A stretch of 64,000 bases of DNA from Okamejei kenojei (Eukaryota). Positions 22,596 to 59,346 of the stretch are shown piece after piece. Below the pieces are notes generated by a model, which saw only the letters and a list, made by a program, of their open reading frames with translations, made no database searches and had not been told where the DNA came from. Location: the NCBI GenBank assembly GCA_035221665.1, contig CM069142.1, positions 60,574,001 to 60,638,000 on the forward strand, written 5' to 3'. Within the stretch, counting starts at the first letter, position 1, and each line of letters begins with the position of its first letter. Made by a program: the position numbers and the translations under genes.

Positions 22596-23359
22596 AAAGA
22601 ACCGCAGATAGACACAAAAAGCTGGAGTAACTCAGTAGGACAGGCAGCATCTCTGGAGAGGAGGAATGGGTGACGTTTCGGGCCGAGACCCTTCTTCTGA
22701 GTTCTTGACCTGAAATGTCACCCATTCCTTCTCTCCAGTGATGCTGCCTGTCCCGCTGAGTTACTCCAGCTGTTTGTGTCGATCTTTGGTTTAAACCAGC
22801 ATCCGCAGTTCCTTCTTATACAAAACAACCGCCTTCGCCTATGCGTTCTCCTGGTTGCTAAACATTTTAACTCGCCCTTCCCATTCTGTCCTGGGCCTCC
22901 TCCACTGTCAGTGTGAGGTCACACGCAAATTGGAAGAACGGCACCTTATATTTCGCTTGGGCAGGTTACAACCCAGCAGTATGAACTTTGCTTTCTCTCA
23001 TTTCAAGTAACTCCTCCCTTTCATTTCCTTTTCCCCTGACTAGTCTGAAGAAGGGTCTTGACCAGAAACGTCATCCATTCCTTCTCTCCGGAAATGTTGC
23101 CGGTCCACCTGTGTTACTCCAGCATTTTGTGTCCATCTTCGGTTTAAACCAGCAACTGCAGTTCCTTCCTACACATTCCCTCCCCCTCCCTCTCTTACCT
23201 CCACCACCCGAGTCGTTCTACGAGTTCTATAGTTCACATCCTTATATCTTCTCTTCCCCATCCAACAATGGGTCATTATGGACTCCACCCATCTCAAGGT
23301 CACCTGTTGCTGGCCCATGATTTGTTCTGGCCTTTTCTCGCCACCAGTTTTTCCTTCCA

Positions 23360-23391
<32 letters not shown>

Positions 23392-23505
23392 ACGCCACCT
23401 GTATCTTTCAGTCGGAAGTAGGAACTCGACTCGAGATGTCACCTATTCCTTTTCTCCAGAGATGCTGCCTGTCTGAGTTACTCCAGCATTTTGTGTCTAT
23501 CTTCA
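22596..23505. mobile_element. Cluster of Penelope-derived repeats (hairpin 22596-22818; GIY-YIG tail + pLTR 22860-23175; further pLTR to 23505)
   Basis: Repeated GCATCTCTGGAGAG..GACGTTTCGGG motifs in both orientations and RKLEERHLIFRLGRLQPS coding remnants. Confidence 0.75.
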
Positions 23506-23695: not shown

Positions 23696-23811
23696 CTGAA
23701 GTCAAATATTTCAATGAATTAGTGAACAGTCGATAACCAGTGGCACAATCGTTCCTGATAATAGAACTTTTTTGAAGTTAATAGACAAAATAGTCCAAGT
23801 AGTCCAAGTAA

Positions 23812-24039
23812 GGCAGTATGGTGGCGCAGCGGTAGAGTTGCTGCCGTGCAGCACCGGACCCGGGTTCGATCAAGACCACGGGTGCTCCCTGTATGCATTT
23901 TGTTCGTTCTCACCATGACCACATGGGTTATTTCTGAGATCTTTGGTTTCCTCCTACACTCCAAATAGGTACAGGTTTGTAGGTTTGTGGCTTGGTATCA
24001 GTGTAAAATTGTCCCTAGTGTGTGTCGGATAGTGTTAGT
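23812..24039 (+). mobile_element. HE1-like SINE, 5' part (3' part resumes at 27860)
   Basis: The SINE sequence stops at GTGTTAGT and continues as TTAGTGTGTGGGGATCGCC..GGGCCTGTTTCC after the Gypsy insert. Confidence 0.85.
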
Positions 24040-24189
24040 TGTCACATCTTCACCTAAGATGTGGAATAATAATATTGACACTCTATTTACAGGTTACATT
24101 CCTTTGTCTCTGTGTTTATTATCTCCCCCGGCCATGGCCTCCTGCCTTGGCTTACACAGCGCACACACGACCTGTCCTCCAAGTTGCAG

Positions 24190-25133
24190 CATGCTGCCTC
24201 TGGAATTGTCACCACCTCAGAAATGCTGGTTGTCTCAGGAACACTGGTCACTGCCTCAGGGATGTCGTCTGGCCCCTCTGAATCGGTAGCTCTTGGTGGA
24301 TTTTGGGCCACCTCGCTTTGACTGTCTCTGGACATGTACTTTTTGCCACTCGATACATTTCTCTTGTAGATAACACCTTCTGGAGACTTGACTGTCACCA
24401 CACTGCCACTACCTCGATACAATATTGTATGGCTGGCAATAGTAAGGAGTGTCCACCTTAACGCCATCATCTCGTCTCACAAGCACGTCATCACCAGTTA
24501 TTATTTCAGAGTGCCTGGCTCCTCGTTTCAAGTCGGCATAACATTTTGCCGCACCTTTCTTTTCGGCATCACAGTCTCTCAGCTCCTGGTCTTCCGTGAT
24601 CTCTCGCACTTCTGGTGTTTTTGTGCAATTTCTCCTTCCAAACAAGGCTTCTGCTGGGTTTTTCCCTGTCGTGGAGTGAGTGATTGCCCGATATACAGTT
24701 ATGTATGCTACCAGTGTCTCCTTCCAGTTTTTCCCTTCAGCATGGGGGATTTGTATCCTCTTCTCTATGGACTGGTTTTGTCTCTTTACTTCTCTGTTAG
24801 CTTGTGGCCATTTAGGAGTCACCTTGTGACGATGGATGCCTGTGATTCTCATGTATTCAGCAAACATCTCAGAAACAAACTGTGACCCATTGTCGGGGTA
24901 CAATGTAACAGGCAACCCCTGTCTGGCGAAGATCTCTGCTAATGCCTGTACCGTCTTTTCTGCTGTAGTTGACTTCATCAAATGCATACTGGTAGAACCT
25001 ACTATAGTAGTCTACCACTACCATAATTGATTCACCAGTTGGAAGTGGTCCAAGAAAGTCAACAGCTACGTCAACCCTTGGTCCTGTTGTCAACTTTGTA
25101 CTTTTAATTGGTTCTGGTGGGTTGCTCCTGCTT
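24190..25133 (-). pseudogene. Gypsy integrase core + C-terminus (inverted segment)
   Basis: SRSNPPEPIKSTKL..GP..DVAVDFLGPLPTGESIMVVVDYYSRF; GLPVTLYPDNGSQF; WPQANREVKRQN; TTGKNPAEALFGR; VKSPEGVIYKRNVS. Confidence 0.88.
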
Positions 25134-27738
25134 AGTTAAACCTTAATGATGCTTTGTCGATTGCAGCGCACTGGAAGCTGTTGAGGGACAATTTCACAGC
25201 ATGAAATTGAAAGATTCCAAGACTGGGCAAGTTAACTGGCTGAGGTTGAGTATTACAGGTGTGGCCACAAGCGTCACATAGGGAAAGATGCATGTTGTCC
25301 AGCAAAAGGTAGAACATGTAGGAAATGTGGAAATAAAGATCATTTTGCAAAGACATGTAAAAGTAAAGGCCAGGGACAAGACAAGTGATTACAACAAGAA
25401 AGGGAAGTCCAGTGGAAAGAAAGACAGACCTTGGCAGAAAAAATAAGGTCACATCCTTTACGTAGAAGGTGATTTTGGAAGTGATGAAAGACAGTGATGA
25501 AGCAGGTGAGCTTGCTGTTAAAATGAATTATCAGTTTGCATTGAATGAGAGCCATCACGAGAAAGTTACAGTGACCATCGGAAGTGTTACAGTGCCAGTA
25601 ATTGTAGATTCAGGTAGCGACAGCAACGTAATTGACAGATCACTTTGGGAATGCATGAAACAGCAGAAAATCAAGTGCACGTCAAGGAGGTGTAGCAGGA
25701 AGTTATATCCATACACCGCAACTAAACCATTGTAGACCATTGGATGTTTCACGGTTAAAGTAGAGGTCGGAGATAGAAAAACTGAAGCAGAAATCGTGGT
25801 GATAGAGGAGAAAGGGGAACTTCTGCCGAGTAGAAATACAGCTCGAGAGCTGGGATTGCTTCACATCGGAGTGCAGGTCAATTCAGTGCAGTCATATGGT
25901 GACATGAGGCAAGAATTTCACTCAGTATTCCAATGGGTTGGAAAATTGAAAGGCCGGCAAGTGAAGTTTGCCATTGATGAAAATGTCAAACCGATAGCTC
26001 AACCGGTGCGGAATACGCCATTTGGACTTTGTGGAAAAGTAGAAGCTAAAATCAAGGAGTTAATTGATCAGAACATTATTGAGCCAGTTGAATGTTCGAC
26101 ACCATGGTTGAGTCCAGTAGTGATTGTGCCGAAACCCAATGATGACATAAGACTGTGCGTTGACATGAGGAGAGCAATGAGGTAATAATCAGAGAAAGAC
26201 ACCCAATTCCTATGGTCGATGAGGTGCTACAAGAGTTATCAACCAGTAAAGTGGTCTCCAAAATTGATCTCAAGTGGGGATATCATCAATTGGAATTACA
26301 TCCAGTCAAGAGAGGTGACAACATTCGTCACTCACTGTGGATTGTACCGGTACAAAGGACTGATGTTCGGAATCAATGCTACTCCCCAGATCTATCAGTA
26401 CGAAATCCACAGAGTCAGTGACTCCAACTCTCCCGCTTTCGGCGGGAGATCGCCCGCTGAAAGGCCATTTTAGCAAAATCTCCCGCTCTCCCGCTTGAGA
26501 TATAATTTCTCCCGCCCGGGCGGGAGAAATTAAATCTCAAGCGGGAGAGCGGGAGATTTTGCGAAAATGGCCTTTCAGCGGGCGATCTCCCGCCGAAAGC
26601 GGGAGAGTTGGAGTCACTGCAGAGTGATTCAAGGTGTACCAGGAGCAGCAAACATATCAGATGACATCATCGTCCATGCATCAATTCGTGAAGAGCATGA
26701 CAGGAGGTTGAAGCTCGTGCTGACTTAACTTCAAGAAGCAGGACTCACCGTGAATGAAGAAAAGTACAAGTTTGGCGCCTCTGAGATGGATTTCATGGGA
26801 CACAGACTCACAAGTGAAGGGCTGAACCCGGCCAAGGCTAAAGTGAAAACTGTTGCAGATGTACGTGAACCTCAGAATGCAACCGAGATGAGGAGCTTTC
26901 CAGGACTGGTCAATTACTGTGCAACATGTATACCAAATTTTGCTACACTGGCAGATCCGCTGAGAAAGTTGACCAGGAAAGACGTACCGTTCTAGTTTGG
27001 TAGTGAACAGGGACAGGCATTCAAATCACTGAAACAGAGTGCAGAAACCCTTAGATATTATGATCCAGCTGCACCAACAAAAGTCATAGCACATGCTAGT
27101 CCGGTCGGCTTGGAAGCAGTGCTGGTACAGACACATGCAGATGGACCGAGAATCATAGCATATGAAAGTCAATCTTTAACCAGATCACAAGCCGCTGGAA
27201 GAGATCTATTCGACGAGGTCTAAGCCATGTGCCAGAATAGAACATTGGGTGCTGAGACTCCAACAGTACAATTACAAAGTAGTCCACATTGCTGGGAAAG
27301 CAAACACCGCGGACCCGCTGTCGAGATGTTGAACGATGAACAGCTGGGAGCAACATCCACGCTAGACATGGAAGCAGAGAACTTTGTGCACTTCGTCGCA
27401 ATTCGGTCAACGCCAAGATCCATGACAATGAAGGAAGTTGAAAGGGAATCAGAACATGATCCTGAACTCAAAGATATCAGAGAGCGTATACACAGTGGGC
27501 AATGGGATCAATGCCCTTACAAAGCATATGTTCCCATAAAAGATGAATTTTCTGTAATTGGTCAGTGTGTGCTGAGAGGTAGCAGATTGATGATCCCACA
27601 GGCATTACGACCAAGGATCGTGTCATTGGCTCATGAAGGACATTTAGGCATCGTCTGTACCAAACTGAATTTACGAAGCAAAGTGTGGAGGCCAGGTTGT
27701 GAGAAAGTTGCCGAAAAATTTGTCAAGACCTGTCACAG
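25134..27738 (+). pseudogene. Gypsy gag C-terminus / protease / RT / RNase H / integrase zinc finger, with stops and frameshifts
   Basis: Zinc-knuckle remnants ~25240-25365; VIVDSGSDSNVI; SPVVIVPKPNDDIRLCVDMR; KIDLKWGYHQ; ISDDIIV; AHASPVGL; LAHEGHLGIV..KTCH. Confidence 0.9.
26416..26619. mobile_element. 204-bp near-perfect palindromic MITE with 6-bp TSD (hAT-like), inserted in the Gypsy RT
   Basis: 102-bp arms, no spacer, 2 mismatches; TSD CAGAGT at 26410-26415 and 26620-26625; repeated CTCCCGC motifs. Confidence 0.9.
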
Positions 27739-27785
27739 GTGCGCTGTGTAAGCCAAGGCAGGAGGCCATGGCCGGGGGAGATAAT

Positions 27786-28067
27786 AAACATAGAGACGAA
27801 TGTAACCTGTAAATATTGTGTCAGTATTATTATTCCAGATCTTAGACGAAGATGTGACATTAGTGTGTGGGGATCGCCAGTCGGTGCAGACTCTGTGGGC
27901 CGAAGGGCCTGTTTCCGCGCTGTATCTCTAAACATAGAGACGAATGTAACCTGTAAATATTGTGTCAGTATTATTATTCCACATCTTAGGCGAAGATGTG
28001 ACATTAGTGTGTGGGGATCGCCAGTCGGTGGGCTGAAGGGCCTGTTTCCGCGCTGTATCTCTAAACT
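27786..28067 (+). repeat. ~144-bp local tandem duplication (LTR end + SINE tail)
   Basis: TAAACATAGAGACGAATG...GATGTGACATTAGTGTGTGGGG...CTCTAAAC occurs twice, with TAAAC microhomology at the junction. Confidence 0.85.
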
Positions 28068-28921
28068 AATAAAAAAACTAACTACAAGGGTACAACAGGC
28101 AAGCTATGAGAATGAAATACATGATTTAATTCTCCCCCTATCTTACCCGAACTTGGATTTCAATCACAGACTCTGGGTTTTCATTTCTGGGCATTTTTAT
28201 CCTGATGTTCGGGAGGTTGACTGGCATTGAGTTTGCAATTAGAGGCTCCAAACTGTTGTCGCCCAATGTCTACATGCACAGTCTTGATATCGGTCGATAA
28301 TCAGGCTCCCTCTAAGGAGATTCAGATCAATTCTTGTTGCTTCATCACACATCTGACATACCATCAAACAGAATCCAAGATCATCTTGGTCTGGCTGCAC
28401 CTATCCACTGAGCTACTGGAATAATTTATATTATGCATTTATTAAGAAATTATCCAGGTTAGTGCCGACTAATAATAAAAAAACTAAACTTTCCTAAACG
28501 TTAATAGTAATGTCAATATGCTTTGAAATGCTCTCAGATCAAGGCATTCTATGTCCATTTATAACAATAATAATAATAACATAATAAATCTTTTCTTTCC
28601 TGGATATTACAGGCTTGATATGTCTTCAGTAAAATATTCTGCAATAACTGTAGTTTGACATGATCATAATGTAAGAAGATTTGTCTGTTAAAGCAAACTA
28701 TAACATTAGAAATATTTTATAAAAGTCATACATCACCAATTAATGTATTCTACTCTCATACATGTTGATAGATTTTGACAGGGTTATATTGGGCAAATTA
28801 CTAGTATCTTAGTTTAGTTATAGTGAGATATAACACCGATTCCATGCCGACCAGCGATCCCCGCATGCTTACACTATCCTTCACACACAGGAGACAATTT
28901 ACGATTAAACCAAGCCAATTA

Positions 28922-29238
28922 TGGTGCTGTCCCACTGTACGAGCTAATGCAAGAGTTCTCCCGAGTTTCCCCTGATTCGAACTTGGGGAATTACGGTAAT
29001 AGCCGCTCGTAGGTACTCGGGGCTCTCGTGGACATTTTTTAACATGCTGAAAAATCTTCACGAGTCTTCACGAGCTTACCGCGTTTCCCGAGTACCTGCC
29101 GTTAGCGTTACGAGCCGTTAAGAGACGTCCCGAGCTCCGACATACCCGCAACGTACACTCTACGTGCTTACCATGAGTTCGATTTCTTTTTAAACTCGGG
29201 AGAGCTCTTGAATTAGCTCGTACAGTGGGACAGCCCCT
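28922..29238. mobile_element. PIF/Harbinger-like MITE inside an HE1-like SINE (duplicate at 44923-45241)
   Basis: TIRs (T)GGTGCTGTCCCACTGTACGAGCTAAT / ATTAGCTCGTACAGTGGGACAGCCCCT; TTA TSD. Confidence 0.85.
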
Positions 29239-31044
29239 TTAGCATATAAGCCTGTCTGTCTTTGGAATGTGGGAAGAAACCGGTGATCCCAGAGAAAATC
29301 CACGTAGATCACATCACAAACTCCGTACAGACAGCACCCGCAGTTAAGATCGAACCCGAGTCGCAGGCGCTGTAAGGCTGCAACTCTACTGCTGCACCAC
29401 CATACCGTGTCATTATCAATGTGGAGGCCACTACTGTTAATTTATCACAGACATATTTTTCATATTCCAACAGACATTGATTAGTTTTGACGTTTGTCCA
29501 TAACTCACCCCCTTTTTAAGGGAATACAATTTATTCGAGAATTAGCAAATTGTTGTTAAACACTATCAATTGATTTTAGATTTGGGAAAAGACGAACAAA
29601 CTATAAGACTGCGAAACTCGAGTACATCGACAGAGTAAGCCGACAAAAATTGTATTGATTACCTCATACCATTGTAAGGGAGAGAGGGCTGATTGATTGA
29701 TAACTTTAATGGGGAACATTTCATTACTGATAAACAAAATACTTCTGCCATAACACCAGCGCTTAACAACAAAAAAAACCAAGCCCAATGCCAAAGTAGT
29801 ATCTAAACTGCCTACGTAGACTTATACAATGGGACAATAACTAACTCCGTATTCCATAGTAAGCTATCTACATGTTAATAAGCATACACAAATTAAGCAT
29901 GCAGATATATATTCAGTAAAGAGGCGATTGAGTGTTTTAGATGTCTTCTTGATTTTGGAGAAGGCCAATTGACTCACCTGACCTTTTCCAGAACCTCATT
30001 TAGCTCTAGTGGTTCCTTGATACACACCTCTAAAAATTGTATCAATTAAAATAGTTACAGAATTCTTTGAAGTATGAATATTAAAAATCAGGGTGAAAAT
30101 CATTAATGGTCACCAATTAGTGTTTTAGAATTGTGTATTTAAGAAATATGGTTCTATTGTCCTCATTATGAGGTGGAGCTTACTTCAAATAGACAATCCA
30201 TTATAAATCAATCCAAAGTCTGAAATAGGTTTCTACACTTGTCTGTAGAAACAGGCAGATGCTAGTTCAAAGAAGGGTCCTGACCCGATACGTCGCCTAT
30301 CCATGTTCTCCAGAGATGCTGCCTGACCCACTGAGACACTTTAGCATGTGTGTCTTTCCTTATGCAATTGTCTCCTTTGTAAACAAGGTCACAGTTTAAT
30401 ACTGTGGACGTCTGTACCTTCTGAGAACTATTCTTCATTTGTTAACTCAGAGGGAAAATGGTGTCAGGAGACTTGGATAAACATGGACCTAATTCTGCCG
30501 TTAGTTTCGTTTAGAGATACAGCACGGAAACAGGCCCTTCGGCCCACCATGTCCGCGCAGACCAGTGATCCCCGTACTCTAGCACTCTGCTACACACAAT
30601 TTACAATTTTTCCCAAATCCAATTAACCAACAAAGCTGTCCATCTTTGGAGTGTGGGAGGAAATTGGAGCACCTGGGGAAAACGTACAAACTCCATTTAG
30701 ACAGCACCCGACGTCAGGTTCGAACCCGGGTCTCTGGCATTGTAAAGCAGCAACTCTACTACTGCGCCACCGGTCACCCTATTGTTGTTAGTTATTGCAT
30801 CCCCCCCCCCCATGTAAACATTTCAGCAAAATTAATATTCTTCATTTCCCTGGTCCAAGGACACCACAGCCCACAAACGAGTCTACTACAATAATTGAGA
30901 CATCCCAACTCAGTATTACTCCCAACATGACATCTATCTGTATCCTTCTCACGGACTGCATTTGATATAAATTGTGACCCATCAGTAAATCGTGGCATTA
31001 AATAAACCCTGCTTCACTCCAGTACACAAGGCATTTATACTTAC

Positions 31045-31344
31045 TCGGCTTCACCGTGATGAATAGTGCAGTCGTTTTCGGCTGAGGAAGAGCTTTAATG
31101 TTGGCCAGACACATAATCTCAGCGCTGACACTAAGGGAAAGGGTTAAAGTGCTGAAGGTATTGTAGAGATTATCTGAAGACCGATGGACAATGGTGGAGT
31201 ACATTTTTGAATCCATGTTTGTGTTGGTTTTTTTCCATAGGATAGCTGGTGCAGGATTCCAACCTTCTGCCTTACAGACAATGGTGAAGACACGGTGTTG
31301 CTCAACAGATGGAATCTCCTTCGCAAAAGACAGCTGGCCATCAA
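31045..31344 (-). CDS. IGSF5: IGSF5-like second Ig (C-type) exon, copy A, intact
   Basis: cccacAG acceptor and A|GTAAGT donor; 300 nt, phase 1-1. Reads VDGQLSFAKE..IVCKAEGWNPAPAILW..STLTLS..IMCLANIKALPQPKTTALFITVKP, with the Ig Cys pair and Trp. Confidence 0.85.
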
Positions 31345-34324
31345 CTGTGGGAGAATAAGAACAGACATTTTGTTTTGTGCACTGTCTTAACAGTGATGAA
31401 CATGTCCTTTAAGCTAATAAATGCCCATGAATTGAAACAACTCTTAAAATGTCTTATTTTTCTTTACTTTAGACTATGGAGATGTAGTACGGAAACAGGC
31501 CCTTCGTCCATCAAGTCTGCGCCGATCAGCGATCACCCCGTACACTAGCACAATCCTACAATTTATAATTTAACCTAAGCCGATTAACCTACAACTTTCA
31601 CGTCTTTGAAATGTGGGGGGGGGAACTGGAGCACCCGGAGAAGACCCAGGAAGAAACATAAAAATTCTGTACAGACAGCACCCGTAGTCAGGATCGAACC
31701 CGACTCTCTTGCGCTGTAAGGCAGCAACTCTATTTTCCCTTGTTATATAACTGAGTTATGGTGGAACAGTGGTGCAAATGGTAGAGTTACTGCCTCGCAT
31801 CGCCAGATACCCGGGTTCGATCCTGACCTCGGGTACTGTCTGTATGGAGTTTGCATGTTCTCCCTGTGACCACATAGGTTTTCTCCGGGTCCTCCGCATA
31901 CATCCCACATCTCAAAGAAATGTGTGTCGGCAGGTTAATTAGCCTCTTTAAATTGCCCTAGTGTATAGGTGTGCAGAAATAGTATGTGAACGATGATCGA
32001 TGGTCAGCATGGACTTGATGGGTGAAGGGCCTGTTTCCATGCTCTATCTCTATAAAAAATTCCTATTCCCCTCCTTACGCATGTGAGATTCTGACATTTT
32101 ATTCTCTTTGATTGCCCTTCCTCCTAATTGCCTTATGAAAACTTGAACCACTTCAAGCACTCCATAGTGCTTGGATATAACTGAGTGACGAGCTGGGTGT
32201 CTTCACATGGTGGTTTAGAGTCAATTGCCTTATTGTGGGCATGGAGTCATACCCAGTGTCACGCAGTGCCCAGTGCCCAGACACCAGTGCCCAGTGTCAC
32301 GTAGCATTAAAGATTTCTCTCCTTAAACAGACGGAAGGATTGTTAGCATCCAACGCTTTTATAGACACATTTCCAAATTCTTATTTCTAGATATTTAAGA
32401 ATGCAATGCCAATTCTTAAACTGCCTTGGGAACTGACGCATATCGACAATGAGTTGGTGAATGGGGCATTAAGACTGCCAGGCTGAACACTGGAGATTAC
32501 AAGGAGCATCAAGGTGCTAAGCTCTATGTTCTTGCAGGAGGTTCTACAGCAATGTGAGACCATGGTCTCCATTCTGAAGGTCATGTGTATTTTTTTGTAA
32601 GGGCTCCGCACCAATCCCATCACACAGCACCTACTGGTACAGGCAATGGGCAGAGGTGGCCCATATACAGGCCACAGAAGACCTTTCTTTTGTCCATCAG
32701 ATCTCACTAGCTGGGGGTCAGCATTGGTTGGGATGGATTAGTGGGGCTGAAGGGCCTGTTTCCGTGCTGAATAACTCCATGACTCTATGCAAGCAAGAAG
32801 CTCGAAAGGACGACAGCGGAGCTATCAAGGAGCCGCTTGCCGTCTGTCTGAGTGGAGAGGTAGCAATCGTGTGCAAACCATTCCTCTGGATCAATTGCTG
32901 CTCTGATTGATCTCAGGCGTGCAGCCATGAGGAGCTCATGGTCCCAGAGGGGCAAGGTGATGCTGCTCGTCTAGTAACAGGATGCTACTGATGTATTGGA
33001 AGACATGGCATGTCGAGAGATTACCATCCACGAGCGAAATGCTCTGGCACAGAAGCATTGTGGCTCCTTTTTGCCCTCCTATTAAATACATGAGGTGTAT
33101 ATAGGGTAGGCATTCTTTCCCATGATAGCGGGTGTAAAAAAAAACAGGATGGCACAGGTTTAAGATGAGAGGAAAGAGATTTGAAAGGATTTGACGAGGA
33201 AGTGTTTTAAACTGAGAGTGATTGGCATGCTGGTGGAGCTGGTGTGATGCATTCACTACAATTAAGAGGCACCTAGAAAGGCACAGAACATAGAACATAG
33301 AAATGTACAGGAACAGGCCCATCAACCCAAAGTGTCCAAGGCAAATATGATGTCAAGTTAAACTAATCTGCTCTACCTGCATGTGATCCATATCCTTCCA
33401 TTCACCGCATACCCATGTGCCTGTCTGTAAGCCTATTGGCGATTCGGCCTCCACCGCTGCCCCTGTCACCCACCACTCTCTGTGTAAAAAAACCTTCCCT
33501 GCACATCTTCTGTAAACTTTGCACCTCTCATCTTAAAGCCTTGCCTCTGGTCTTGGACATTCCCACCTAGGAACAAGGTTCTGACTATTAACCTCCCTGT
33601 CACATGAACCAATCACTGACTATTAACCAATCTATACCCTATCTAAACCTGTTTAAATATATTTTAAACATTGTAATTGTACCAGTCATCTTGTTCCACA
33701 TCTCACCAGGGTATGTACGCTGCCCTTCGGATCCCCTTTAAATCTTTCCCTTTTCACCTTAAATGTCCTCTAATTTCCAACTCTCTTAACCTGCAAAATG
33801 GGCAGTGACCATCCACCTTGTGGAGGTATGCAAATGTTCCTCATGACTTTACATACTTCCATAAGGTCTCCTACACTCAGTCTCCCACACTTCAGGCAGA
33901 AGATGTCCAGACTATCGGGACTCTCCTTATAATTAAGCCACAGTACTCCAAGTGTGGTCTCACCAATGGCTTGTACAAATGTAATCAGGAATATCCCAAT
34001 TCCTATACTCAATGCCTCCGGGAGGTCTCATCAATGACCACACTACAACTTCCAATAAGCCCTGAACTACATAGACTATTATTGTTACTATTGATCTATT
34101 ATTTTTTGGGGTTTTTTTATGTCCACGTATGTGTGCGTTTGTGTGTGTGTATACATATGATTATATGTGTATGTATGTATGGGTATATATGTGTACGTTA
34201 CACTTTCTGCACCACCCTGTCATAAGGTCACAAGGTCATAAGCGATAGGAGTAGAATTAGGCCATTTGGACCATCAAGTTTACTTTGCCATTCAATCATG
34301 GCTGATCTATCTTTCCCTTCTACC

Positions 34325-35062
34325 CAGGGGTGGAAAACATGGGGGTGGGGGTGGCCAGAGGCGACACGTCCCCCCCATGTTTTGAGAGGTGGGGGACATC
34401 CCCCCCCCCAAGTTTTTGTAATCCAGATTTTAAAATCTCCGCTTTCCGCGAGACTGTGGCGGTGGGATTGTTGATAGAGGGCACCGATTGGACGAGAGAG
34501 ACGTCGGTCAGCAGGCAATGGGGACGGGACATGGTGATTCAGCGCGATGATTGGAGGAGGGAGGAGTTGGGGGGGGTGTGACTGAGGATAGAGTGTGGTG
34601 ATTGGAGGAGGGAGACGTGGCACAGACCTGCGCCTCATCCGCAGCCAGGACCGATCCCGGCCGGGTCTCCGGCGCTGTCCCGTCCCCACCCGAGTGCCCC
34701 CCCCCCCCCCCCCCCCCCATGGGCCAGAGACGTCGGCAGTCAGAAGCGAGCTGTACCCCCAGGCCCACAGCCAGCGCAGAGAAGCAGCGCTAAACCCAGC
34801 TCACTCTGCCAGGTGAACCAGCCTGGGCTTGCGGGAAATATGGGCAGCGCGGAGAAGAGGCGCTGGTGTCCCTTCAGTCCAGTCAGGGCTGTAGGTTAAC
34901 CCGGCGAGACAGGCAGAGTTGAGCTGCATTTAGCACTGGGTTGAGCCTCCGAAGCCTCGCGCATGTGTGTGTGAGTGTGCGCATGCGCGCGCGGTTGCCA
35001 AAAAATTGTGTCCCCCCTGTCCCCCAGTCCCCTCCATATTTTGTAAGCGAGTTCCGCATTTG
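34325..35062. mobile_element. GC-rich hAT-like non-autonomous element inside a CR1 tail (duplicate at 50353-51069)
   Basis: 8-bp TSD CTTCTACC / CTTCTAAC; imperfect termini CAGGGGTGGAA / TTCCGCATTTG; subterminal GGGGAC/GTCCCC repeats. Confidence 0.7.
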
Positions 35063-35664
35063 CTTCTAACCCTATTCTCCTGCCTTCTCCCAATAACATC
35101 TGACACCCGTACTAATCAAGAATCAATCACTGGCTTAAAAATATCCACTGACTTGGCCTCCACAGCCTTACGTGGCAAAGAATTCCACAGGTTCACCACC
35201 CTCCGACCAAAGAAATTTCTCCTCATCACTTTACTAATCCTTTAATTCTGTGGCCACGACCCTAGTTCCAGAATCTCCCACTAGAGGAAACATCCTCTCC
35301 AGATCTCTGTCTACCGGTGTCACCAATGAGTTGTGTGTATTTTATATATACCTTCAACATAAAACAAAAATCAAGGAAAAAAGGTGGGCAAGCCATAGCT
35401 AACAAGAAATCAAACATGTTTTTTTTCTTGAGTTCACGGAAGAGACACAAAACCTTTTGAGAGTAGTAAATAATTGTATGTCTAAAATGAATGAGGAGCT
35501 CAAGGTAAATAGTAAAAACCAAGCGACGGAGTCATTAATGAGACTTAACAATGATGGATCTGCAGTAGTTGCATCCAAGAAAACTGAAGGATGTCGCCAT
35601 GGTGATAGTGGAGGTCCTGGTTGTCATCTTCTAAAATTCCATAAATTCTGAAATAGAGTTAGAT

Positions 35665-35965
35665 GGGGCAGCATGGTAGAGGTGCTGCATTACAGCGCTA
35701 GAGACCCGGGTTCGATCCTGACTACGGGCTCCGTCTGTAAGGTGTTTGTACGTTCTCCCTGTGACCACGTGGGTTTTCTCTAGGTGTTCTGTTTTTCTCC
35801 CACGCTCCCAAGACGTACAGGTTTACAGGTTAATTGGCTTCGGTAAAGATTGTAAATTGTCCCTAGTGTGTGGTATAGTGCTAGTGTACGGGGTGAGCGC
35901 TGGTTGGTGCGGACTCGGTGGACCGAAGCGCTTGTTTTTGCGCTGTATCTCTAAACTAAAACTAA
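35665..35965 (+). mobile_element. HE1-like SINE (duplicate ~51677-51980)
   Basis: tRNA head with B box, V-domain and tail. Confidence 0.82.
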
Positions 35966-36949
35966 GGACTGGAAGGCAGCAAACAGAACCCACTTATAGA
36001 AAGGCAAGAGAGGGAAAATGTGGACCTTCAGATCAGAGTCAGTCTCATGTCAGCTGTGGGAAACCTGCTGAAATCAGTTACTAAAGAAGCAGCACCAGGG
36101 CATCTCGAAAATAATAATAAGATTGGACAGAGTCACTGTGGATTTATGAAAGGGAAATCATGTTTGACAAGTCTCGAAGTATTTTGAGGTTGTAACTGGC
36201 AGAATAGACAAGGGCAAACGAGTTGATCTGGAGCATTTGAAGTTTTAGAGGCCTTCACAAAGTTGTCACATGGAGATTATTAAAAGAGATAAAGATTGCA
36301 CAGTATTGCAGGATAACATACTAGGACGGATTTAGGATTGGTTAGCTGACAGAACACAGGGAGTGTTAATAAACAGCTTCTTTCAGGGTTGAGAGGGTGT
36401 GACTACAAGAGTGCCACAAGGAAAAGAGGGTCTGCGATGCCTTACCTAGAAAGGATACCAAGGTTATAATGTCAGAAGCTCAACATGCTCAAGAGAAAAC
36501 CTGGTCGCCTTCAGACATAGCAGACTGCAAACAGAGGGGAAGGAGCTGTTCCTTGGTCTGGTGATATACGTGCTTTCAAGCTTCTGTACTTTCTGCCGAT
36601 CAGGACAAAGGAGAAGAAGGAATGACTATTGTGGGACATTTGGACACGTGAGTGAAATCCGTATCTTTTCTACGTTCGTGAGAAGCCATCAAATCCCATT
36701 TTCTGAGGTGCCGCTGGTTGCTCAGTGAAGCCAAAGGGGATGGATAAAAAAATAAAAACCGCTTCCTTGCAAATGCAGGACTTGGGTGGCCTGTTTGAAT
36801 TTGTGCTTAGCAGAAAATGGTGAGACACGGAATAGATCTAACGTGGTCATTTGGGCAGATCTGATGGCAAGGAATCTGAGAATCCCCTTGACCTTGACGA
36901 TGGAGAGAGAAGTTCAGTGACAGGTGCAGAATGCCACATTTGGCGTTGA

Positions 36950-37370
36950 AAGTAGACACAAAATGGTGCAGTAACTCAGCCGATCAGGCAGCATCTCTGG
37001 AGAAAAGGAATGGGTGACGTTTCGGGTCGAGACCCTTCTTCAGACTGAGAGTCAGGGGAGAGGGAGGCATAGAGATATTGAAGGGTAAGGTGTGGAGGAA
37101 CAGCAGCTCAAATTTCGCTTGGGCAGCTTACAACCCAGCGGTATGAATATTGACTTCCATAACTTCAAGTAACCCTTGCTTTCCCACTCGATCTCTTGAT
37201 CTCTCGCTATCACATCATTCCCTCATAGAGATATGTCTCCCTCTCCCCTGACTCTCAGTGTGAGGAAGGGTCTCGGCCCAAAACAGCACCCATTCCTTTT
37301 CTCCAGAGATGCTGCCTGTCCCGCTGAGCCATTCCAGTATTTCGTGTCCAACTTCTGTGTTCCTTCCTAA
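36950..37370. mobile_element. Penelope-derived inverted structure (duplicate ~52965-53378)
   Basis: Inverted pLTR arms enclosing an EEQQLKFRLGSLQPSGMNIDF remnant. Confidence 0.75.
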
Positions 37371-37954
37371 CACACAGCTTTGAATGAATATTTCATCATT
37401 GAGGTCCAGGTAGGTTACACCGTCTCTTGAGATTTTCTAAAAGTTGCAACTGACATGATATTGCTTCCTGCCACATCATCACTGACCCACACAGTTTGGT
37501 TTCTCCTTCAGTGCGGCCAACAGTGGAGCTGCTGAATAGCTCAGCAGATAAATGACCTGTGAAATACTCCTTGGTAGCTCTGGAGCACCCTGTGAATTTT
37601 AGAATACATTTGTGCGACTCGCAATCAATAACACAATGCCAGCACTGTGTCCACTAAATAACAAGTAGACCAGCGATGAGCTCTATCTCAAATGAGACTA
37701 TTCCATAACCATCACAATTTGGAACTTTAAGCTCCAATTTGTGCCTTTAATGGCAAAAGACACCAGCTGCTAGTGCAGTCATGTCATCATGGTGTATTGA
37801 ATGTTGGTAAATGTCAGGAGTGTTTGTATGGATCACACAGCTAAGTGCCCAGTTCTTTAGGCTTTAGATTTTATAGATACAGTGTGGAAACAGGCCCTTC
37901 GGCCCATCAGGCCCGTGCTGCCCACTGATCAACACAGGTCTCTGGCGCTGTTAA

Positions 37955-38243
37955 TGCCCCTGTCCCACTTAGGAAACCTGAACGGAAACCTCTGGGGACT
38001 TTGTGCCCCACCCAAGGTTTCCATGCGGTTCCCAGAGGTTCCCAGAGGTTTTTGTCCTCCAGCAACCACCTTCAACTAGCATCGCAACCGGCTTCGACTA
38101 AAAAATTACCGATTTTTAAAACGGGAACCACTATCGACCATTAGGGAGACTGACAAAAACCTCCGGGAACCACACGGGAACCTTGGGTAGGGCGCAAAGT
38201 CTCCAGAGGTTTCCATTCAGGTTTCCTAAGTGGGACAGGGGCA
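37955..38243. mobile_element. PIF/Harbinger-like MITE inside a SINE (duplicate 53965-54256)
   Basis: TIRs TGCCCCTGTCCCACTTAGGAAACCTGAA / TTCAGGTTTCCTAAGTGGGACAGGGGCA; TAA/GAA flanks. Confidence 0.82.
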
Positions 38244-38759
38244 GAAGGCAGCAACTCTACCGCTGCGCCACTGTGGCAACAGTAGAGCGGCAGTATTATT
38301 TTGCAGTTGGTACAATTTCACCCTGAAATGATTGTCAGCACAATCTACTCCAGAGTAAAGATAAGACACAAAGTGCTGGTGTAACTCAGCGGGTATGCAG
38401 CATCTCTGAAGAACATGGGTGGGTGACGTTTTGGGGTCAGGACTGAAGAAGGTTTTCAATCTCAAGAAGAGCCCCAACTCAAAATATTACCAATCCATTT
38501 TCTCCAGAGATGCTGCCTGACTTGTTGAGTTACTCCAGCACTATGCATTTTTTTTTTATAACCAGCATCTACAGTTCCTTTTCTTCTTCCTCCAGGTTAA
38601 ATTAGGAAAAAATGTGATTTTGACATCTAGAAAGTGTGGATACATCATCCAATTTTCAAGCATAATTGTTCAACTTATGTCGGCGCAGTGTGGTGTGGTG
38701 GTGCAGCGGCAGAGTTGCTGCCTTACCACGCCACACACCCGAGTTCGATCCTGACTACT

Positions 38760-39320
38760 GATTCAAGATTCAAGATTCAAGAGAGTTTATTGTCATGTGT
38801 CCCAGATAGGACAATGACATTCTTGCTTTGCTTCAGCACAACAGAATATAGTAGGCATAAATAAATACAGAACAGATCAGTGTGACCAAATGCCATTGAA
38901 TATATATCTATACGCATATAAAAAAGCAGATAAAGTGCAATGGGCTATTAATGTTCAGAGTTTTGTTTGAGTTGAGTTTAATAGCCTGATGGCTGTGGGG
39001 AAGTAGCTATTCCTGAACCTGGATGTTGCAGATTTCAGGCCCCTGTACCCTTTTACCTGAAGGCAGTGGGGGGATGAGTGAGTGGCCAGGATGGTGTGGG
39101 TCCTTGATGATGCTGCCAGCCTTTTTGAGGCAGCGACTGCGATAGATTCCCTCGATGGTAGGGAGGTCAGAACCGATGATAGACTGGGCAGTGTTTACAA
39201 CTTTTTGCAGTCTTTTCCGCTCCTGGGCGTTCAAGTTGCCGAACCAAGCCACGATGCGACCGGTCAGCACGCTCTCTACTGTGCACCTGTAGAAGTTCGA
39301 GAGAGTCCTCCTTGACATAC
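38760..39320 (-). mobile_element. Rex1/Babar LINE 3' fragment inside an HE1-like SINE (duplicate ~54771-55328)
   Basis: NFYRCTVESVLT..AWFGN..LQKVVNTAQSIIG..IIKDPHHPGH..LPSGKR, the typical Rex1 C-terminus; (TTGAATC)n tail. Confidence 0.88.
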
Positions 39321-40314
39321 CTGTCTGTACAGTTGTACGTTCTCCATGTGACCACATGGGTGTTCTGGTTTTGTCTCACACTCCAAAAACGTGCAGGTTT
39401 GTAGGTTAATTGGCTTTGGTTAAAATCGCAAATTGTCCCCAACGTGTAGGTTGGGGCTGGTGTGTGGGGATCGCTGGTCGCGCGGACTCAGTGGTCCGAA
39501 GGGCCTGCCTCAGCACTAAACGAAAAAAAAACTAAAAGTTCCACTTCCTTAACCATGCTTAATGCACGCTTATGCAGCTCTAGGTTTAACATTAATAACG
39601 TTCCCGCAAAGCACCTTAGACCACCTTACTGCATTAATGCAAGCTGTGAGTGGAAACATATAGCGCTGCTTGCGTACCCACTGGGGAATGGATGTTTGTG
39701 ATTGTGTATGTAAGAGTAAATAAAAAGGACAAAGTAGGATAAAAAAAATACATTCTCATGTGTCTGAAGAGTGTGAACAGAACTGTACACACACAAAATC
39801 AAAACAGAAGATGAAAAGCAAAGCAAGGGGGCAATTGCAAAGGATTGCCATCAGTCTAGTACAGGCAACTGTCATGATGCATTTCTTTTGATCTTTCGGA
39901 GAGTCCCTGTAACCCCCCCTCTGTTTTCGCTCCCTTCTCTACCGCATCTTCCACTCAAACCTCTGATCTTGTTAGATGAAAGAGTAGTTTGATCGTCACA
40001 TCAATTTGAACTGTGGGTCGGCAGCAACGCAGAAGCAGGACCTAAAATAATGAGCTCACGCTGCCCCTTATCTTTATACCATCCTGACACAAATAATGAG
40101 GAAGTGCTATGTTGGTTTGAAGCAGAGGTCAAAACAATTTACAAGACAGAATGCAAGAACCAAAGCTGCATTAGAAATAATGAGCGAGATGAAAGAAGAG
40201 AACATTTTTTTATGCCAAGTAAAATGTTGCAAAATTAGTTTTTAAGCGACAGAAGGAATCCAGGTTGAACTTTACCTTAAACGGTGATGCAGCGGAAGAG
40301 TTGGTTCCTTACAG

Positions 40315-40713
40315 AAAAGATCCTATAGCAAGCAAGATAGATCACTCGACGAAAAAGACGTAGTACGGGCATGGGCAGATTCATGGGTAATTTTCGGCCC
40401 CATTTCCGTAACCGGCTTCTGTCTCTGCACCAAAGATCCCATAGCGGAGCAAAGATACTAGTGCGGAGACGGAAGTCGGTTACGGAAACATCCTTGTAAA
40501 AATAAAAGTTATTTGGGAAAAATCTTCTCCTCATTTTCAGAATTATAATTTATTAACACAAACTGTTCCCCCGCAACGCTGATTACACTGCGAGTGGGGT
40601 TGGGTTACGGAAATGGATGAAAAAAAGGCCCATGATCCACTTTGTTGCGTACTACACGTCAGCCCATTGCATTTAGAAGGAGTGATCTATCGTACTTCGC
40701 TATAGGGTCTTTG
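40315..40713. mobile_element. Non-autonomous DNA transposon with ~33-bp TIRs and 8-bp TSD, P-element-like termini (duplicate 56330-56727)
   Basis: AAAAGATCCTATAGCAAGCAAGATAGATCACTC / GAGTGATCTATCGTACTTCGCTATAGGGTCTTTG; TSD CCTTACAG on both sides; inserted in a SINE head. Confidence 0.8.
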
Positions 40714-42929
40714 CCTTACAGAGCCAGACCTCCGGGTCAGATCCTGACTACGGGTGCTTGTCTGTACGGAGTATTACCTTCTCCTCCTGACCTGTATGGT
40801 TTTTCTCCGAGATCTTCGGGTTTCTCTCACACTCCAAAGACATCCAGCTTTGTAGGTTAATTGGCTTGGTATAAATGTAAATTGTCCTTAGTGTATGTGG
40901 GATCGTGTTAATGTGCACGAATCATGGGCCAAAGGGCCTGTTTCCTCGCTGTATCTCTAAATTCAGAGCTGCAGTTGAATGTTCTTTTATCAAAGCATAA
41001 AGTGCTGGAATAATTCAACTGGTCAGGCAGCAAATATGATGGGAATGGACAGGCAATATTAGAGGTCGGGACCCTTCTTCAGTCCCATCCCAAAATGTGT
41101 CTGTCCATTTCCTCCGCAGATGCCGCCTGACCCGCTGAGTTACTCCTGTACTTTGTATCTTACTCAGGATTCCAGTATCTGCAGTTCCTTGTGTCTCCAA
41201 TGTTCTTTTCTGTTGGTTAGTACAGATCGCCATGACGTTATAAAATGGCTGAGCAGGCAAGAGGGTCTGAGTATCTTTTGCCTGCTCCATATTCATACGC
41301 GATAACAGAAAAGAGGGAAAGGAGAGAGAATTGGAATGAAATACACAAGGAAATATCATGCTGAAAATACTAAGAGGTAGCATATCATCAAAACTTGAAT
41401 ATTGTGCATTTCCAACCTTTGCCTGACTTTCCAAGCATACCGCAATGGTCCTGTGATCATTGTCACCTTCTCTGCATCCAACTTTTTTATCATTTCCTTT
41501 TTTCCTGTCACTTTCTCCTGCATCAACATGCCTTCGGTCAGTTAATCACACCTAATCAACCCTTTTGTTCTTTTCTCCCTTTATATAAAGGAGTGGAGAA
41601 ATGAGCACAAAAACGACACCAACCTTTTTTCTAATAAAATAGCAGGGTAATTATTTCAGAAAATATGTCAAAAATAATGATAGTCATATGGAAACCAAGT
41701 ACATAAAATTAACGTGAGCCATTTGTAGCCACCAAGCTTGATTAAAAGGAGAATTACTCAATCATCTCCCCTCTGCAGGCCATCGTGTCGGACCATGCAG
41801 TCTTGTTGAAACTTGTTCAAATCAAATAGCTTCGATTTCCAATGAAAGGATATTGTCACCGAATCTGAAACCTGTCTCTTTCCTATCAATGCTCTCGGAC
41901 CTCCAAATATAATTGCATTTTCAGTTTTCCAGGAATCATACAATTTTCCGACCCGACCCAAAACATCACCTATCTATGTTCTCCAGCAGTGCTGCACGTG
42001 GATCTTTTTATTTAAGGGGTGTCAGGGGTTATGGGGAGAAGGCAGGAGAATGGGGTTAAGAGGGAGAGATAGATCAGCCATGATTGAACAGAGGAGTAGA
42101 CTTGATGGGCCGAATGGCCTAATTCTTCCCCTATCATTTATGAACTTATGAAAACAGCATCTGTAGTTCCTTGTTCCTACTTTCACCAATTGTTACTTTC
42201 AGAAAAAAAATTGTCCCACTCCACTCAATACTCTGAAAATGGTTTCTTAAGAATTTCTCCAATTCCCTTTGGAAAATATTATTTAAGCTGCTCCAAACAC
42301 TCGTTCAGGTAATGTATTCAGATCAAACAATATACTTTTATTCAAAAAAATCCTGTCCTATTATTAAAATATTCATCATTGATGACCCCGTCTTCTCTGT
42401 TAAACCCTTCACAATTTGAACAGAGATTGTTAAAAAAAAGGGGATTGAATAGATTATTAATCATTTTGTTAACTATCTCTGGTCAACAGACAACAGTCCC
42501 AGATTCCAGATTCTGACTCAAGAAATACTGTGCATCTACACTATCTATTCTGGAATAGATATGTTGAATGCACAGAGTCCTTTCCCCAAAATAGGGGAAT
42601 CAGAGAACATGGTGAGTGGGGAAAGATTTAATAGGAACCTGAGGGGCAACCTTTTCACATAGATGGTGGTGGGAACATGCTGCCCGAGGAGGTAGTCGAT
42701 GCAAGTACCTTAAGAACATTTAACAGATATTTGGACAGGTACATAGATAGGAAGGGTTTAGAGGGCTATGGGCTAAACACTGGCAGATGGGACTAGTATA
42801 GATGGGGCATCTTGGTCGGCTTGGGCATTTTGGGACGAAGAGCCTTCTCACATGCTGTATGACTCTATGACTCTATATCTCTACGTTTAGAAAGTAGAAG
42901 TTGTTTATTTGCACCAAAGAATTATACTG

Positions 42930-43327
42930 ACCTAGACACAAAATGCTGGAGCAATTCAGCGAGTGAGGCAGCATCTCTGGAGAGAAGGAATGGGCGACGT
43001 TTCGGGTCGAGACCCTTCTTCAGACTGATGTCAGGGGAGGGGTGGGGCAAAGATAGAATGTAGTTGGAGACAGTAAGACTGGTGGGAGAAGGGGGAGGGG
43101 ATGGAGAGAGAAAAGAAGGGCTATCTGAAGTTAGAGAAGTCAATGTTCATACCACTGGGGTCTATACTACCCAAGTGAAATATGAGGTGCTGTTCCTCTA
43201 ATTTGCACTGAGCCTCACTCTGACAATGGAGGAGGCCCAGAAAGGTCAGATTGGGAATGGGAGGGGGAGTTGAAGTGCTGAGCCACCGGGAGATCGGGTA
43301 GGTTAAGGAAGACTGAGCAAAGGTGTT
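42930..43327 (-). mobile_element. Penelope-like element 3' fragment (GIY-YIG tail + pLTR) abutting the Ig exon donor (duplicate ~58933-59327)
   Basis: Reverse strand encodes PVAQHFNSPSHSQSDL..LEEQHLIFHLGS; contains CTGAAGAAGGGTCTCGACCCGAAACGTC. Confidence 0.82.
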
Positions 43328-43346
43328 CAGTGAAAATTATACTGAC

Positions 43347-43661
43347 CTTGTACAAACAGAAATGCCTGTCGATTTCCGTCAGTTTGAATGCTGCACGTTA
43401 CTGCCATATTGCTGAGCGTGGTCACTGGTGAGATGATAAGTTCGGAAGTAAATGTGCTACTAGTTGTGTAGTTCTTATGTTGAAACTGGGGATTTGTAAT
43501 AACTGGTCCCTCTTTTACAATGGTAAGGATGGGGTTGTCATCTATTATCCAGATGATAATTTTCCAAGGCAATGATACAGTGCAGTTGAATGCGGCATCA
43601 GAGTGAAGCAAAGCAAAGGCGTTTTTTGGACCTTCTATAATTGCAGTCGATAAACACACAC
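43347..43661 (-). CDS. IGSF5: IGSF5-like first Ig (V-type) exon, copy A, intact
   Basis: cttttAG acceptor and G|GTCAG donor; 315 nt, phase 1-1. Reads IIEGPKNAFALLHSDAAFNCTVSLPWKIIIW..PVITNPQF..FTSELII..VTCSIQ..AFLFVQ, which resembles mammalian IGSF5 as I recall it (VIEGPQNA..ARFNCTVSQGWKLIMW..PIITNDRF..FTSEMII..CSLQ..AYLTVQ). Confidence 0.88.
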
Positions 43662-46600: not shown

Positions 46601-47054
46601 CACAATTTACAATTTTTCCCAAATCCAATTAACCAACAAAGCTGTCCATCTTTGGAGTGTGGGAGGAAATTGGAGCACCTGGGGAAAACGTACAAACTCC
46701 ATTTAGACAGCACCCGACGTCAGGTTCGAACCCGGGTCTCTGGCATTGTAAAGCAGCAACTCTACTACTGCGCCACCGTCACCCTATTGTTGTTAGTTAT
46801 TGCATCCCCCCCCCCCATGTAAACATTTCAGCAAAATTAATATTCTTCATTTCCCTGGTCCAAGGACACCACAGCCCACAAACGAGTCTACTACAATAAT
46901 TGAGACATCCCAACTCAGTATTACTCCCAACATGACATCTATCTGTATCCTTCTCACGGACGGAGATGCATTTGATATAAATTGTGACCCATCAGTAAAT
47001 CGTGGCATTAAATAAACCATGCTTCACTCCAGTACACAAGGCATTTATACTTAC

Positions 47055-47358
47055 TCGGCTTCACCGTGATGAATAGTGCAGTCGTTTTCGGCTGAGGAAG
47101 AGCTATAATGTTGGCCAGACACATAATCTCAGCGCTGACACTAAGGGAAAGGTTTAAAGTGCTGAAGGTATTGTAGAGATTATCTGAAGACTGATGGACA
47201 GTGGTGGAGTACATTTTTGAATCCATGTTTGTGTTGTTTTTTTTCCATAGGATAGCTGGTGCAGGATTCCAACCTTCTGCCTTACAGACAATGGTGAAGA
47301 CACGGTGTTGCTCAACAGATGGAATCCTCCTTCGCAAAAGACAGCTGGCCATCAAAAA
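47055..47358 (-). CDS. IGSF5: IGSF5-like second Ig exon, copy B (+3 and +1 insertions; frameshifted as written)
   Basis: Same splice sites as copy A; 304 nt; 5 amino-acid-changing substitutions. Confidence 0.6.
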
Positions 47359-59300: not shown

Positions 59301-59346
59301 AGGTTAAGAAGACTGAGCAAAGGTGTTCAGTGAAAATTATACTGAC

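What the first reader, a model, noticed from the sequence alone, without database searches (positions are those of the whole stretch)
24035..27864. Gypsy element bounded by inverted U5-type LTR ends with a perfect integrase-style TSD
Seen: both termini are the same ~120-bp AATAAA-containing LTR end in inverted orientation (TGTCACA...TGTGACA), and the 5-bp TSD TTAGT is intact inside a cleanly split SINE. Internally, gag-PR-RT-RH-IN(zinc finger) runs on +. The directly following IN core (..KTCH | SRSNPPEP..) has been flipped to the left end on the minus strand. TGTCACA also occurs at the IN breakpoint (27731), matching the terminus. Known: LTR elements have direct repeats, whereas Ginger DNA transposons are Gypsy-integrase derivatives with TGT...ACA TIRs. 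Inference: a rearranged cDNA with two like ends was integrated as a unit. Structurally it resembles an LTR-to-TIR transition intermediate that integrase might re-mobilise.
Basis: partly seen in the sequence, partly recalled or inferred. Interest (0 to 1): 0.7.

Follow-up and report, generated by a model that had tools for sequence, protein, structure and literature searches.

The report
Gypsy copy with two U5 ends
A dead jumping-gene copy carries the same right-hand end on both sides, as does one other copy of its family in this genome, likely because two unfinished DNA copies were joined and the element's own integrase inserted the product, a possible one-step route to DNA-transposon-like ends, although neither copy shows any sign of having moved again.

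Summary
The structure is real. An ordinary ~4.7-kb Ty3/Gypsy family (203-bp direct LTRs, tRNA-Ser primer site, 5-bp TSD) left a copy here whose two termini are both the U5 end of the LTR, facing outward, inside an exact TTAGT duplication in a cleanly split SINE. A second, separately inserted copy on another contig has the same two-U5 layout around an integrase-only fragment (TSD ATCAT/ATCAC). Of 62 multi-LTR clusters listed, 60 are direct, 2 U5-out, 0 U3-out. The three junctions tested are single-copy: no re-mobilisation. Both copies have broken frames and are as old as normal copies (~6% LTR divergence). Best reading (0.6): two tRNA-primed minus-strand cDNAs joined 3'-to-3' before integration, with twin-priming-like geometry, then concerted insertion by integrase. 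Rivals: two separate cDNAs in one intasome, or a later flip through the LTR's 5-bp terminal repeat. It is not a Ginger transposon, but it shows the layout Bao et al. 2010 needed for a Gypsy-to-Ginger step. No listed contig from public runs bridged the inversion joint. The scan's earlier notes report the same kind in six findings from other genomes (unchecked).

The parts
23811..24034 (+). 5' part of the host SINE that was split by the insertion
   Evidence: self-BLAST to other SINE copies; seamless join in 36 of 48 paired hits
24035..24039 (.). left TSD TTAGT
24040..24184 (-). LTR positions ~59-203 (part of U3, R, U5), U5 end facing the left flank
24185..25133 (-). integrase core and C-terminal region, inverted; joined to the LTR piece through a 2-nt microhomology with loss of ~400 bp including PPT and U3 start
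   Evidence: Pfam rve E=3.4e-5, below cut-off; ruler q3256-4150
25134..26415 (+). 3' part of gag (CCHC knuckles), protease, first part of RT; starts at the strand-switch joint 25133/25134
   Evidence: zf-CCHC and Asp_protease_2; ruler q749-2018
26416..26619 (.). 204-bp palindromic MITE-like insertion in RT with its own 6-bp duplication CAGAGT (later passenger)
   Evidence: very high contig depth in public runs
26620..27738 (+). rest of RT, RNase H (with a ~105-bp deletion near 27182), integrase H2C2 zinc finger, ending 4-12 nt (in ordinary copies) before the point where the inverted core begins
   Evidence: RT_RNaseH_2 E=1e-10, Integrase_H2C2 E=6e-12
27739..27859 (+). LTR positions ~79-203 with AATAAA, U5 end facing the right flank
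27860..27864 (.). right TSD TTAGT
27865..27933 (+). 3' part of the host SINE
27929..28066 (+). later tandem copy (144-bp period) of the last 75 bp of the right LTR, the TSD and the SINE tail
   Evidence: shares the right LTR's private 4-bp deletion

Best explanation
This is a dead copy of an ordinary Gypsy retrotransposon with a U5 end at both termini and a normal 5-bp target duplication, likely made when two tRNA-primed minus-strand cDNAs were joined 3'-to-3' during reverse transcription and then likely inserted as one piece by the family's integrase. Shown: both ends are U5 ends without PBS sequence; TSD length is the family's; the two internal parts do not overlap and meet within 4-12 nt of each other on the normal map; a second independent copy has the same layout. 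Inferred steps: (1) cDNA 1 ran from the 3' LTR to the zinc-finger/core boundary of IN; (2) a short cDNA 2 (U5 back to LTR position ~79) switched onto the same RNA at that boundary through a weak match (GTGC/ATGC) and ran to mid-gag; (3) the two 3' ends paired (a GTGA/TCAC match lies at the joint, three of its four bases are missing) and were filled in, giving a duplex with two U5 attachment sites and no need for the PPT; (4) integrase joined both ends in concert. The ~400-bp PPT deletion, the RNase H deletion, the MITE and the flank duplications may be later. L040 needs only step 3 and 4.
For: Family anatomy from 140 fetched stretches: LTR TGTCATGA..TGTGACA, PPT before 3' LTRs, PBS after 5' LTRs, PBS complementary to genomic tRNA-Ser(GCT). 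Exact 5-bp TSD at the exact U5 boundary on both sides. Second case L040 (C13:23830110-23831682): LTR 30-203 inverted + IN region + PPT + full LTR, TSD ATCAT/ATCAC, different junction and LTR subtype. Census 60 direct, 2 U5-out, 0 U3-out of 62 clusters. The two ends of each element are near neighbours among 120 other LTR ends (window ranks 3 and 9; L040 ranks 5 and 6; medians 0.10-0.13 versus 0.05-0.06), and diverge 7/121 and 6/105, like ordinary pairs (median 5.3%). The LTR terminal repeats are 2 of 1061 inverted matches of 5 bp or more within 250 bp in a normal copy, so a chance later flip exactly at the terminus is unlikely. HIV-1 IN/LEDGF binds two U5 duplexes in vitro (PMC3623958, passages).
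Against: Only two cases, one of them chosen for this feature; for the unselected ones (L040, L044/45, L054, L074) the chance of at least one terminal flip is about 0.01 at p=0.002 and 0.08 at a tenfold higher p (hand calculation). 2 versus 0 for U5-out versus U3-out is not significant. Internal inversions with normal LTRs also occur in this family (L044/L045, L054), so inversions can arise without two U5 ends and the near-reciprocal break does not by itself date the event. Junction microhomologies are weak (0-4 nt). The two inverted LTR pieces stop at different places (~30 and ~79), so they cannot both be exact strong-stop DNAs. No listed contig from four public runs bridges the strand-switch joint (94 pieces not shown, runs hold under a third of the words).
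Confidence: 0.6

Rival explanations
1. Two separate, possibly unfinished cDNAs each gave their U5 end to one integrase complex; after concerted insertion the two free inner ends were trimmed and joined by host repair.
For: Explains the exact TSD and two U5 ends; fits L040, whose single joint is nearly blunt with 1-2 unexplained bases; two-U5 complexes form in vitro (PMC3623958).
Against: In the window the two internal parts are complementary, with a 4-12 nt gap and no overlap, which two independent molecules would not give without a further inversion.
Confidence: 0.15
2. A normal insertion was rearranged later in the chromosome: replication template switching at the LTR's own 5-bp terminal inverted repeat (TGTCA/TGACA) flipped part of the 5' LTR in place, keeping the TSD, with further switches flipping gag-pol and deleting the PBS region.
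For: Keeps TSD, LTR age and subtype trivially; deletions are frequent and a few internal inversions exist in this family; a hairpin CACATCT/AGATGTG lies at the U5 end and could stall a fork.
Against: Needs a break at one of 2 among 1061 comparable microhomology pairs in two loci; predicts flipped 3' LTRs (U3-out) equally, 0 seen; needs three switches in the window.
Confidence: 0.15
3. Two independent insertions in opposite orientation, later fused by deletion (the route suggested by Bao et al. 2010 for Ginger1 TIRs).
For: Proposed in print (PMC2836005 Discussion); family has over 200 LTR places.
Against: Two insertions would not share one 5-bp TSD in a seamlessly split SINE; ends are of one LTR subtype in each element.
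Confidence: 0.03
4. Assembly artefact.
For: No listed contig bridges the inversion joint; a 16-kb tandem duplication starts 50 bp to the right.
Against: The ends differ at 7 of 121 sites; two loci on different contigs have exact termini and TSDs; one contig of run X2 covers 24011-24105 across the left end (29 letters on the SINE side, just under the tool's 31-letter rule).
Confidence: 0.03
5. Autointegration (inversion circle) product that later reached the chromosome.
For: Autointegration gives deletion and inversion circles (PMC2644782, passages).
Confidence: 0.02

Closest known systems
Ty3/Gypsy LTR retrotransposons, Mag-like in anatomy
   Same: gag with CCHC knuckles, PR-RT-RH-IN order, TG..CA LTRs, PPT, tRNA-Ser PBS, 5-bp TSD, ~4.7 kb with ~200-bp LTRs as tabulated for Mag elements (PMC3286476, passages)
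   Different: This copy and L040 have two outward U5 ends instead of direct LTRs, no intact U3 terminus at the boundary and no PBS; lineage not tested by a tree
Ginger1/Ginger2 and GingerRoot DNA transposons
   Same: TGT..ACA inverted termini of 120-175 bp (Ginger1 TIRs 40-270 bp), Gypsy-type integrase region between them, short TSD; L040 holds little but the IN region
   Different: No intact transposase ORF, no promoter facing the IN region shown, single copy, TSD 5 bp and unspecific (Ginger1: 4 bp CCGG/CCGT; GingerRoot 6 bp), RT/RH/gag remains in the window copy (PMC2836005, PMC6839031)
L1 twin priming (recalled; paper not held)
   Same: Non-inverted 3' part plus inverted 5'-adjacent part that meet at near-reciprocal points with a small gap and join by microhomology
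   Different: Here the primers would be two tRNA-primed cDNAs in a particle and insertion is by integrase, not target-primed
Defective retroviral proviruses made before integration
   Same: HIV-1 proviruses with inversions and asymmetric LTRs ascribed to RT template switching (PMC9278108, passages); HTLV-1 5' LTR deletions dated before integration in 8 of 12 cases (PMC3185741, passage)
   Different: The passages read describe no provirus with two U5 termini and a normal TSD
DIRS retrotransposons
   Same: Inverted terminal repeats around gag/RT
   Different: DIRS use tyrosine recombinase (abstracts); here the inversion is an accident of 2 copies in a DDE-integrase family

Membership tests
Ty3/Gypsy LTR retrotransposon (parent family) | pol order PR-RT-RH-IN | tested here: met
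   Pfam on window pieces and on copies L157, L148; map on natural copy L123
Ty3/Gypsy LTR retrotransposon (parent family) | direct LTRs TG..CA with PBS and PPT | tested here: met
   ordinary copies: 60 of 62 clusters direct; PBS, PPT; tRNA-Ser(GCT)
Ty3/Gypsy LTR retrotransposon (this copy) | direct LTRs with one U3 and one U5 terminus | tested here: not met
   both termini U5, inverted
Ty3/Gypsy LTR retrotransposon (this copy) | family-length TSD | tested here: met
   TTAGT twice; SINE joins seamlessly
Mag lineage | short LTR, Ser/Leu PBS, ~5 kb, 5-bp TSD | tested here: met
   against PMC3286476 table
Mag lineage | RT phylogeny groups with Mag | not tested
   no reference RT set in hand
Ginger DNA transposon | TIRs beginning TGT | tested here: met
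Ginger DNA transposon | intact integrase-type transposase ORF without RT/RH | tested here: not met
   IN split across two strands with RT/RH present (window); stops and frame breaks in L040
Ginger DNA transposon | 4-bp CCGG/CCGT TSD (Ginger1) | tested here: not met
   5-bp TTAGT and ATCAT/ATCAC
Ginger DNA transposon | dispersed copies with the same internal structure and different TSDs | tested here: not met
   three junction patterns each match once at up to 3 mismatches
Ginger DNA transposon | excision by cut-and-paste | not testable with these tools
   needs population or experimental data
Autointegration product | intact LTR terminus joined to an internal site | tested here: not met

The most novel reading that the evidence does not exclude
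Gypsy integrase inserts two-U5 cDNAs in the germ line at a measurable rate (about 2 in 62 two-LTR insertions here), creating TIR-bounded, TSD-flanked integrase fragments such as L040 in one step; this is the real supply route from which Ginger-type DNA transposons arose, replacing the two-insertion route proposed in 2010.
Probability: 0.2. Interest if true: 0.75.

Novelty: new variant of a known kind. Interest (0 to 1): 0.5.

Why it matters
Bao et al. [quoted passage not shown] A shared TSD in two independent copies shows that inverted termini around an integrase region can arise with a single insertion. It also suggests that integrase accepts two like ends in vivo, and that LTR finders, which look for direct repeats, miss a few per cent of insertions. 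The limit: both copies are dead, single-copy and show no second jump, so they are raw material, not a new mobile element.

Tried and rejected
Re-mobilisation: junction patterns at 25121-25148, 27724-27752 and the L040 joint each matched only their own place; the 24183/24184 junction was not searched. 'Family LTR starts with the inverted sequence': rejected. TGTCACA at 27731 as a cryptic end: rejected. Hidden short inverted ends in lone LTR loci: a scan for TSD+TGTCAC upstream of U5 ends found only the window and L040 (many ends had no partner inside the fetched stretch, and ends with mutated termini were skipped). Public runs: no RNA holder listed; laying contigs on the whole element was swamped by the SINE; on the inversion joint no listed piece bridged it, 94 pieces not shown: inconclusive. 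Transcription start of the LTR could not be placed, so the strong-stop reading of the right LTR piece is untested. Literature: nine answered full-text searches of this topic or its parts plus one on Mag listed no paper whose title, abstract start or read passages describe integrase-inserted copies with two U5 ends; 'inverted LTRs' gave 6 papers, 3 on DIRS; most subscription papers are not covered and no supplements were read. The L1 twin-priming paper was not held. No look-alike by sequence in the scan's notes. L132 and L149 flagged as mixed-strand carry only 41-44 bp internal self-matches and were not counted as inversions.
Full report
Observation. The window is C12:60574001-60638000 of a 2.76-Gb genome; earlier notes of the scan call it a skate (unchecked). 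The element lies between TTAGT at 24035-24039 and TTAGT at 27860-27864, starts TGTCACA and ends TGTGACA, and its ends are reverse complements over about 121 bp. The duplication is real: when the left flank and the right flank were searched separately against SINE copies in the fetched loci, 36 of 48 paired hits joined with no gap after removing one TTAGT. Pfam finds a CCHC knuckle, aspartyl protease, RNase H and the integrase H2C2 finger on +, and a weak rve hit on -. RT was hit only in a family copy (L157). All frames are broken.

The parent family. A DNA search and six LTR pattern searches (lists cut at 100 rows, so counts are lower bounds) and 140 fetched stretches (some overlap) show an ordinary family of about 4.7 kb. 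Its LTR is about 203 bp, TGTCATGA..TGTGACA, preceded by a polypurine tract at the 3' copy and followed at the 5' copy by a PBS that is complementary to the 3' end of genomic tRNA-Ser(GCT). Of 19 ordinary two-LTR copies 12 have an exact 5-bp TSD and 4 one mismatch; 3 did not match as cut, one of these through my boundary error. These traits fit the Mag lineage as tabulated in PMC3286476 (passages); no tree was made.

Map of this copy on a natural ruler (L123). Left to right: LTR 203 to 59 inverted; integrase region 4150 to 3256 inverted; 749 to 3247 forward (3' gag, PR, RT, RH, zinc finger; a MITE and a ~105-bp deletion inside); LTR 79 to 203 forward. So both termini are U5 ends. Missing are the PBS with 5' gag (204-748), the PPT with the U3 start, and 4-12 nt between the end of the forward part and the start of the inverted core. 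Microhomologies are weak: 2 nt at 24183/24184, an imperfect GTGC/ATGC at 27739, and at 25133/25134 a GTGA match of which three bases are absent.

A second case. L040 (C13:23830110-23831682) has LTR 203 to 30 inverted, then the integrase region from 3053 forward, PPT and a full LTR, with ATCAT/ATCAC outside. Its joint and LTR subtype differ from the window's, so it is a separate event. It holds little besides the integrase region, with stops and frame breaks. Among 220 listed LTR places, 62 clusters have two or more within 15 kb: 60 direct, 2 U5-out, 0 U3-out. A scan of fetched loci for a TSD followed by an inverted U5 end found no third case.

Age and mobility. The two ends differ at 7 of 121 (window) and 6 of 105 (L040) aligned sites, against a median of 5.3% for ordinary pairs (range 1.7-11.3%). 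Each end's partner ranks 3-9 (window) and 5-6 (L040) among 120 other ends. The junction patterns tested match once each in the genome at up to 3 mismatches. So both are old single insertions with no sign of a second jump.

Mechanism. From established retroelement biology (recalled), a U5 end free of PBS sequence is the tRNA-primed start of a minus strand. Two such ends imply two primed cDNAs. In the window the two internal parts abut on the normal map, as in L1 twin priming (recalled; paper not held): one cDNA would run from the 3' end to the zinc-finger/core boundary, a short second one would switch onto the RNA there and run to mid-gag, and their 3' ends would pair and be filled in. Integrase would then see two attachment sites; HIV-1 IN/LEDGF binds two U5 duplexes in vitro (PMC3623958, passages). 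RT-made inversions and pre-integration LTR defects are reported for HIV-1 and HTLV-1 (PMC9278108, PMC3185741; passages). I give this 0.6, and insertion by integrase through two U5 ends in either form about 0.75.

Against it. The family also has internal inversions with normal LTRs (L044/L045, apparently one event in duplicated flanks; L054) and a 36-bp fold-back (L074), so a flip after insertion is possible, using the LTR's 5-bp terminal repeat. These repeats are 2 of 1061 inverted matches of 5 bp or more within 250 bp in a normal copy; one search gives 6e-5 to 6e-3 for two hits in six events, but the window was selected, and for the four unselected events the chance of one hit is about 0.01-0.08 (by hand). 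Two versus zero is no proof of a U5 bias, and the scan's notes report two-U3 forms elsewhere (unchecked). Public contigs did not settle the assembly: none listed bridges 25133/25134, one covers the left end with 29 letters on the SINE side.

Comparison. Bao et al. 2010 (PMC2836005; passages and the Discussion read) call the path from LTR element to DNA transposon unclear and propose TIRs from two LTRs of two insertions. The shared TSDs here point to one insertion. But neither copy is a Ginger: no transposase ORF, wrong TSD, no dispersed copies (also PMC6839031, passages). Autointegration (PMC2644782, passages) does not fit the junctions. Ten searches found no paper on this form (listings, not whole texts; no supplements read). 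Six earlier findings of this scan in other genomes describe inverted-LTR Gypsy copies with TSDs; I reached my reading before opening them and could not check them.

Verdict. Real, replicated within the family, mechanistically informative, dead. New variant of a known kind; interest 0.5.

Noticed in passing
G000:C13:23830110-23831682 (L040 3111-4683): Second two-U5 copy: inverted LTR pieces around an integrase-only fragment with TSD ATCAT/ATCAC; closer to a Ginger layout than the window copy.
   Followed up: yes
window 26416-26619: 204-bp near-perfect palindrome (CAGTGACTCC..GGAGTCACTG) with a 6-bp duplication CAGAGT; very high contig depth in public runs, so likely an abundant MITE; superfamily not determined.
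   Followed up: partly
window 27912-43912 and 43914-59910: 16-kb tandem duplication, 137 mismatches in about 16,000 aligned bases; begins in the SINE tail and carries a further copy of the 75-bp U5 end plus TSD at 43931-44010. Young duplication or uncollapsed haplotype.
   Followed up: partly
window 27785-28066: 144-bp tandem duplication of the U5 end, TSD and SINE tail, joined at a short TAAAC match.
   Followed up: partly
L044/L160 (C1:120.93 Mb) and L045/L151 (C1:121.83 Mb): Two copies with the same flank and the same internal inversion (ruler ~1500-1767) plus deletion; apparently one event copied by a segmental duplication.
   Followed up: partly
L054 (C3:121712554-121722454): Copy with direct LTRs, TSD GAGGA, and an inverted, partly duplicated piece of the integrase C-terminal region.
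   Followed up: partly
L074 1501-1588: Truncated LTR end followed by a 36-bp fold-back of LTR sequence; no matching TSD seen.
   Followed up: no
G000:C30 16.6-20.1 Mb (L110-L117): Cluster of about 20 related LTR pieces on one contig with shared flanks, in both orientations; looks like amplification within a repeated gene or satellite array.
   Followed up: no
LTR positions 12-70 (U3) and 179-203 (U5): U3 holds TGAGTCA, ATGCAAAT and TGACCTTTG motifs (AP-1, octamer and nuclear-receptor-like, labels recalled); U5 ends in a 7-bp stem CACATCT/AGATGTG.
   Followed up: no
window 22600-22822, 23044-23175, 23412-23504: Fold-back and direct copies of another short repeat family left of the element.
   Followed up: no
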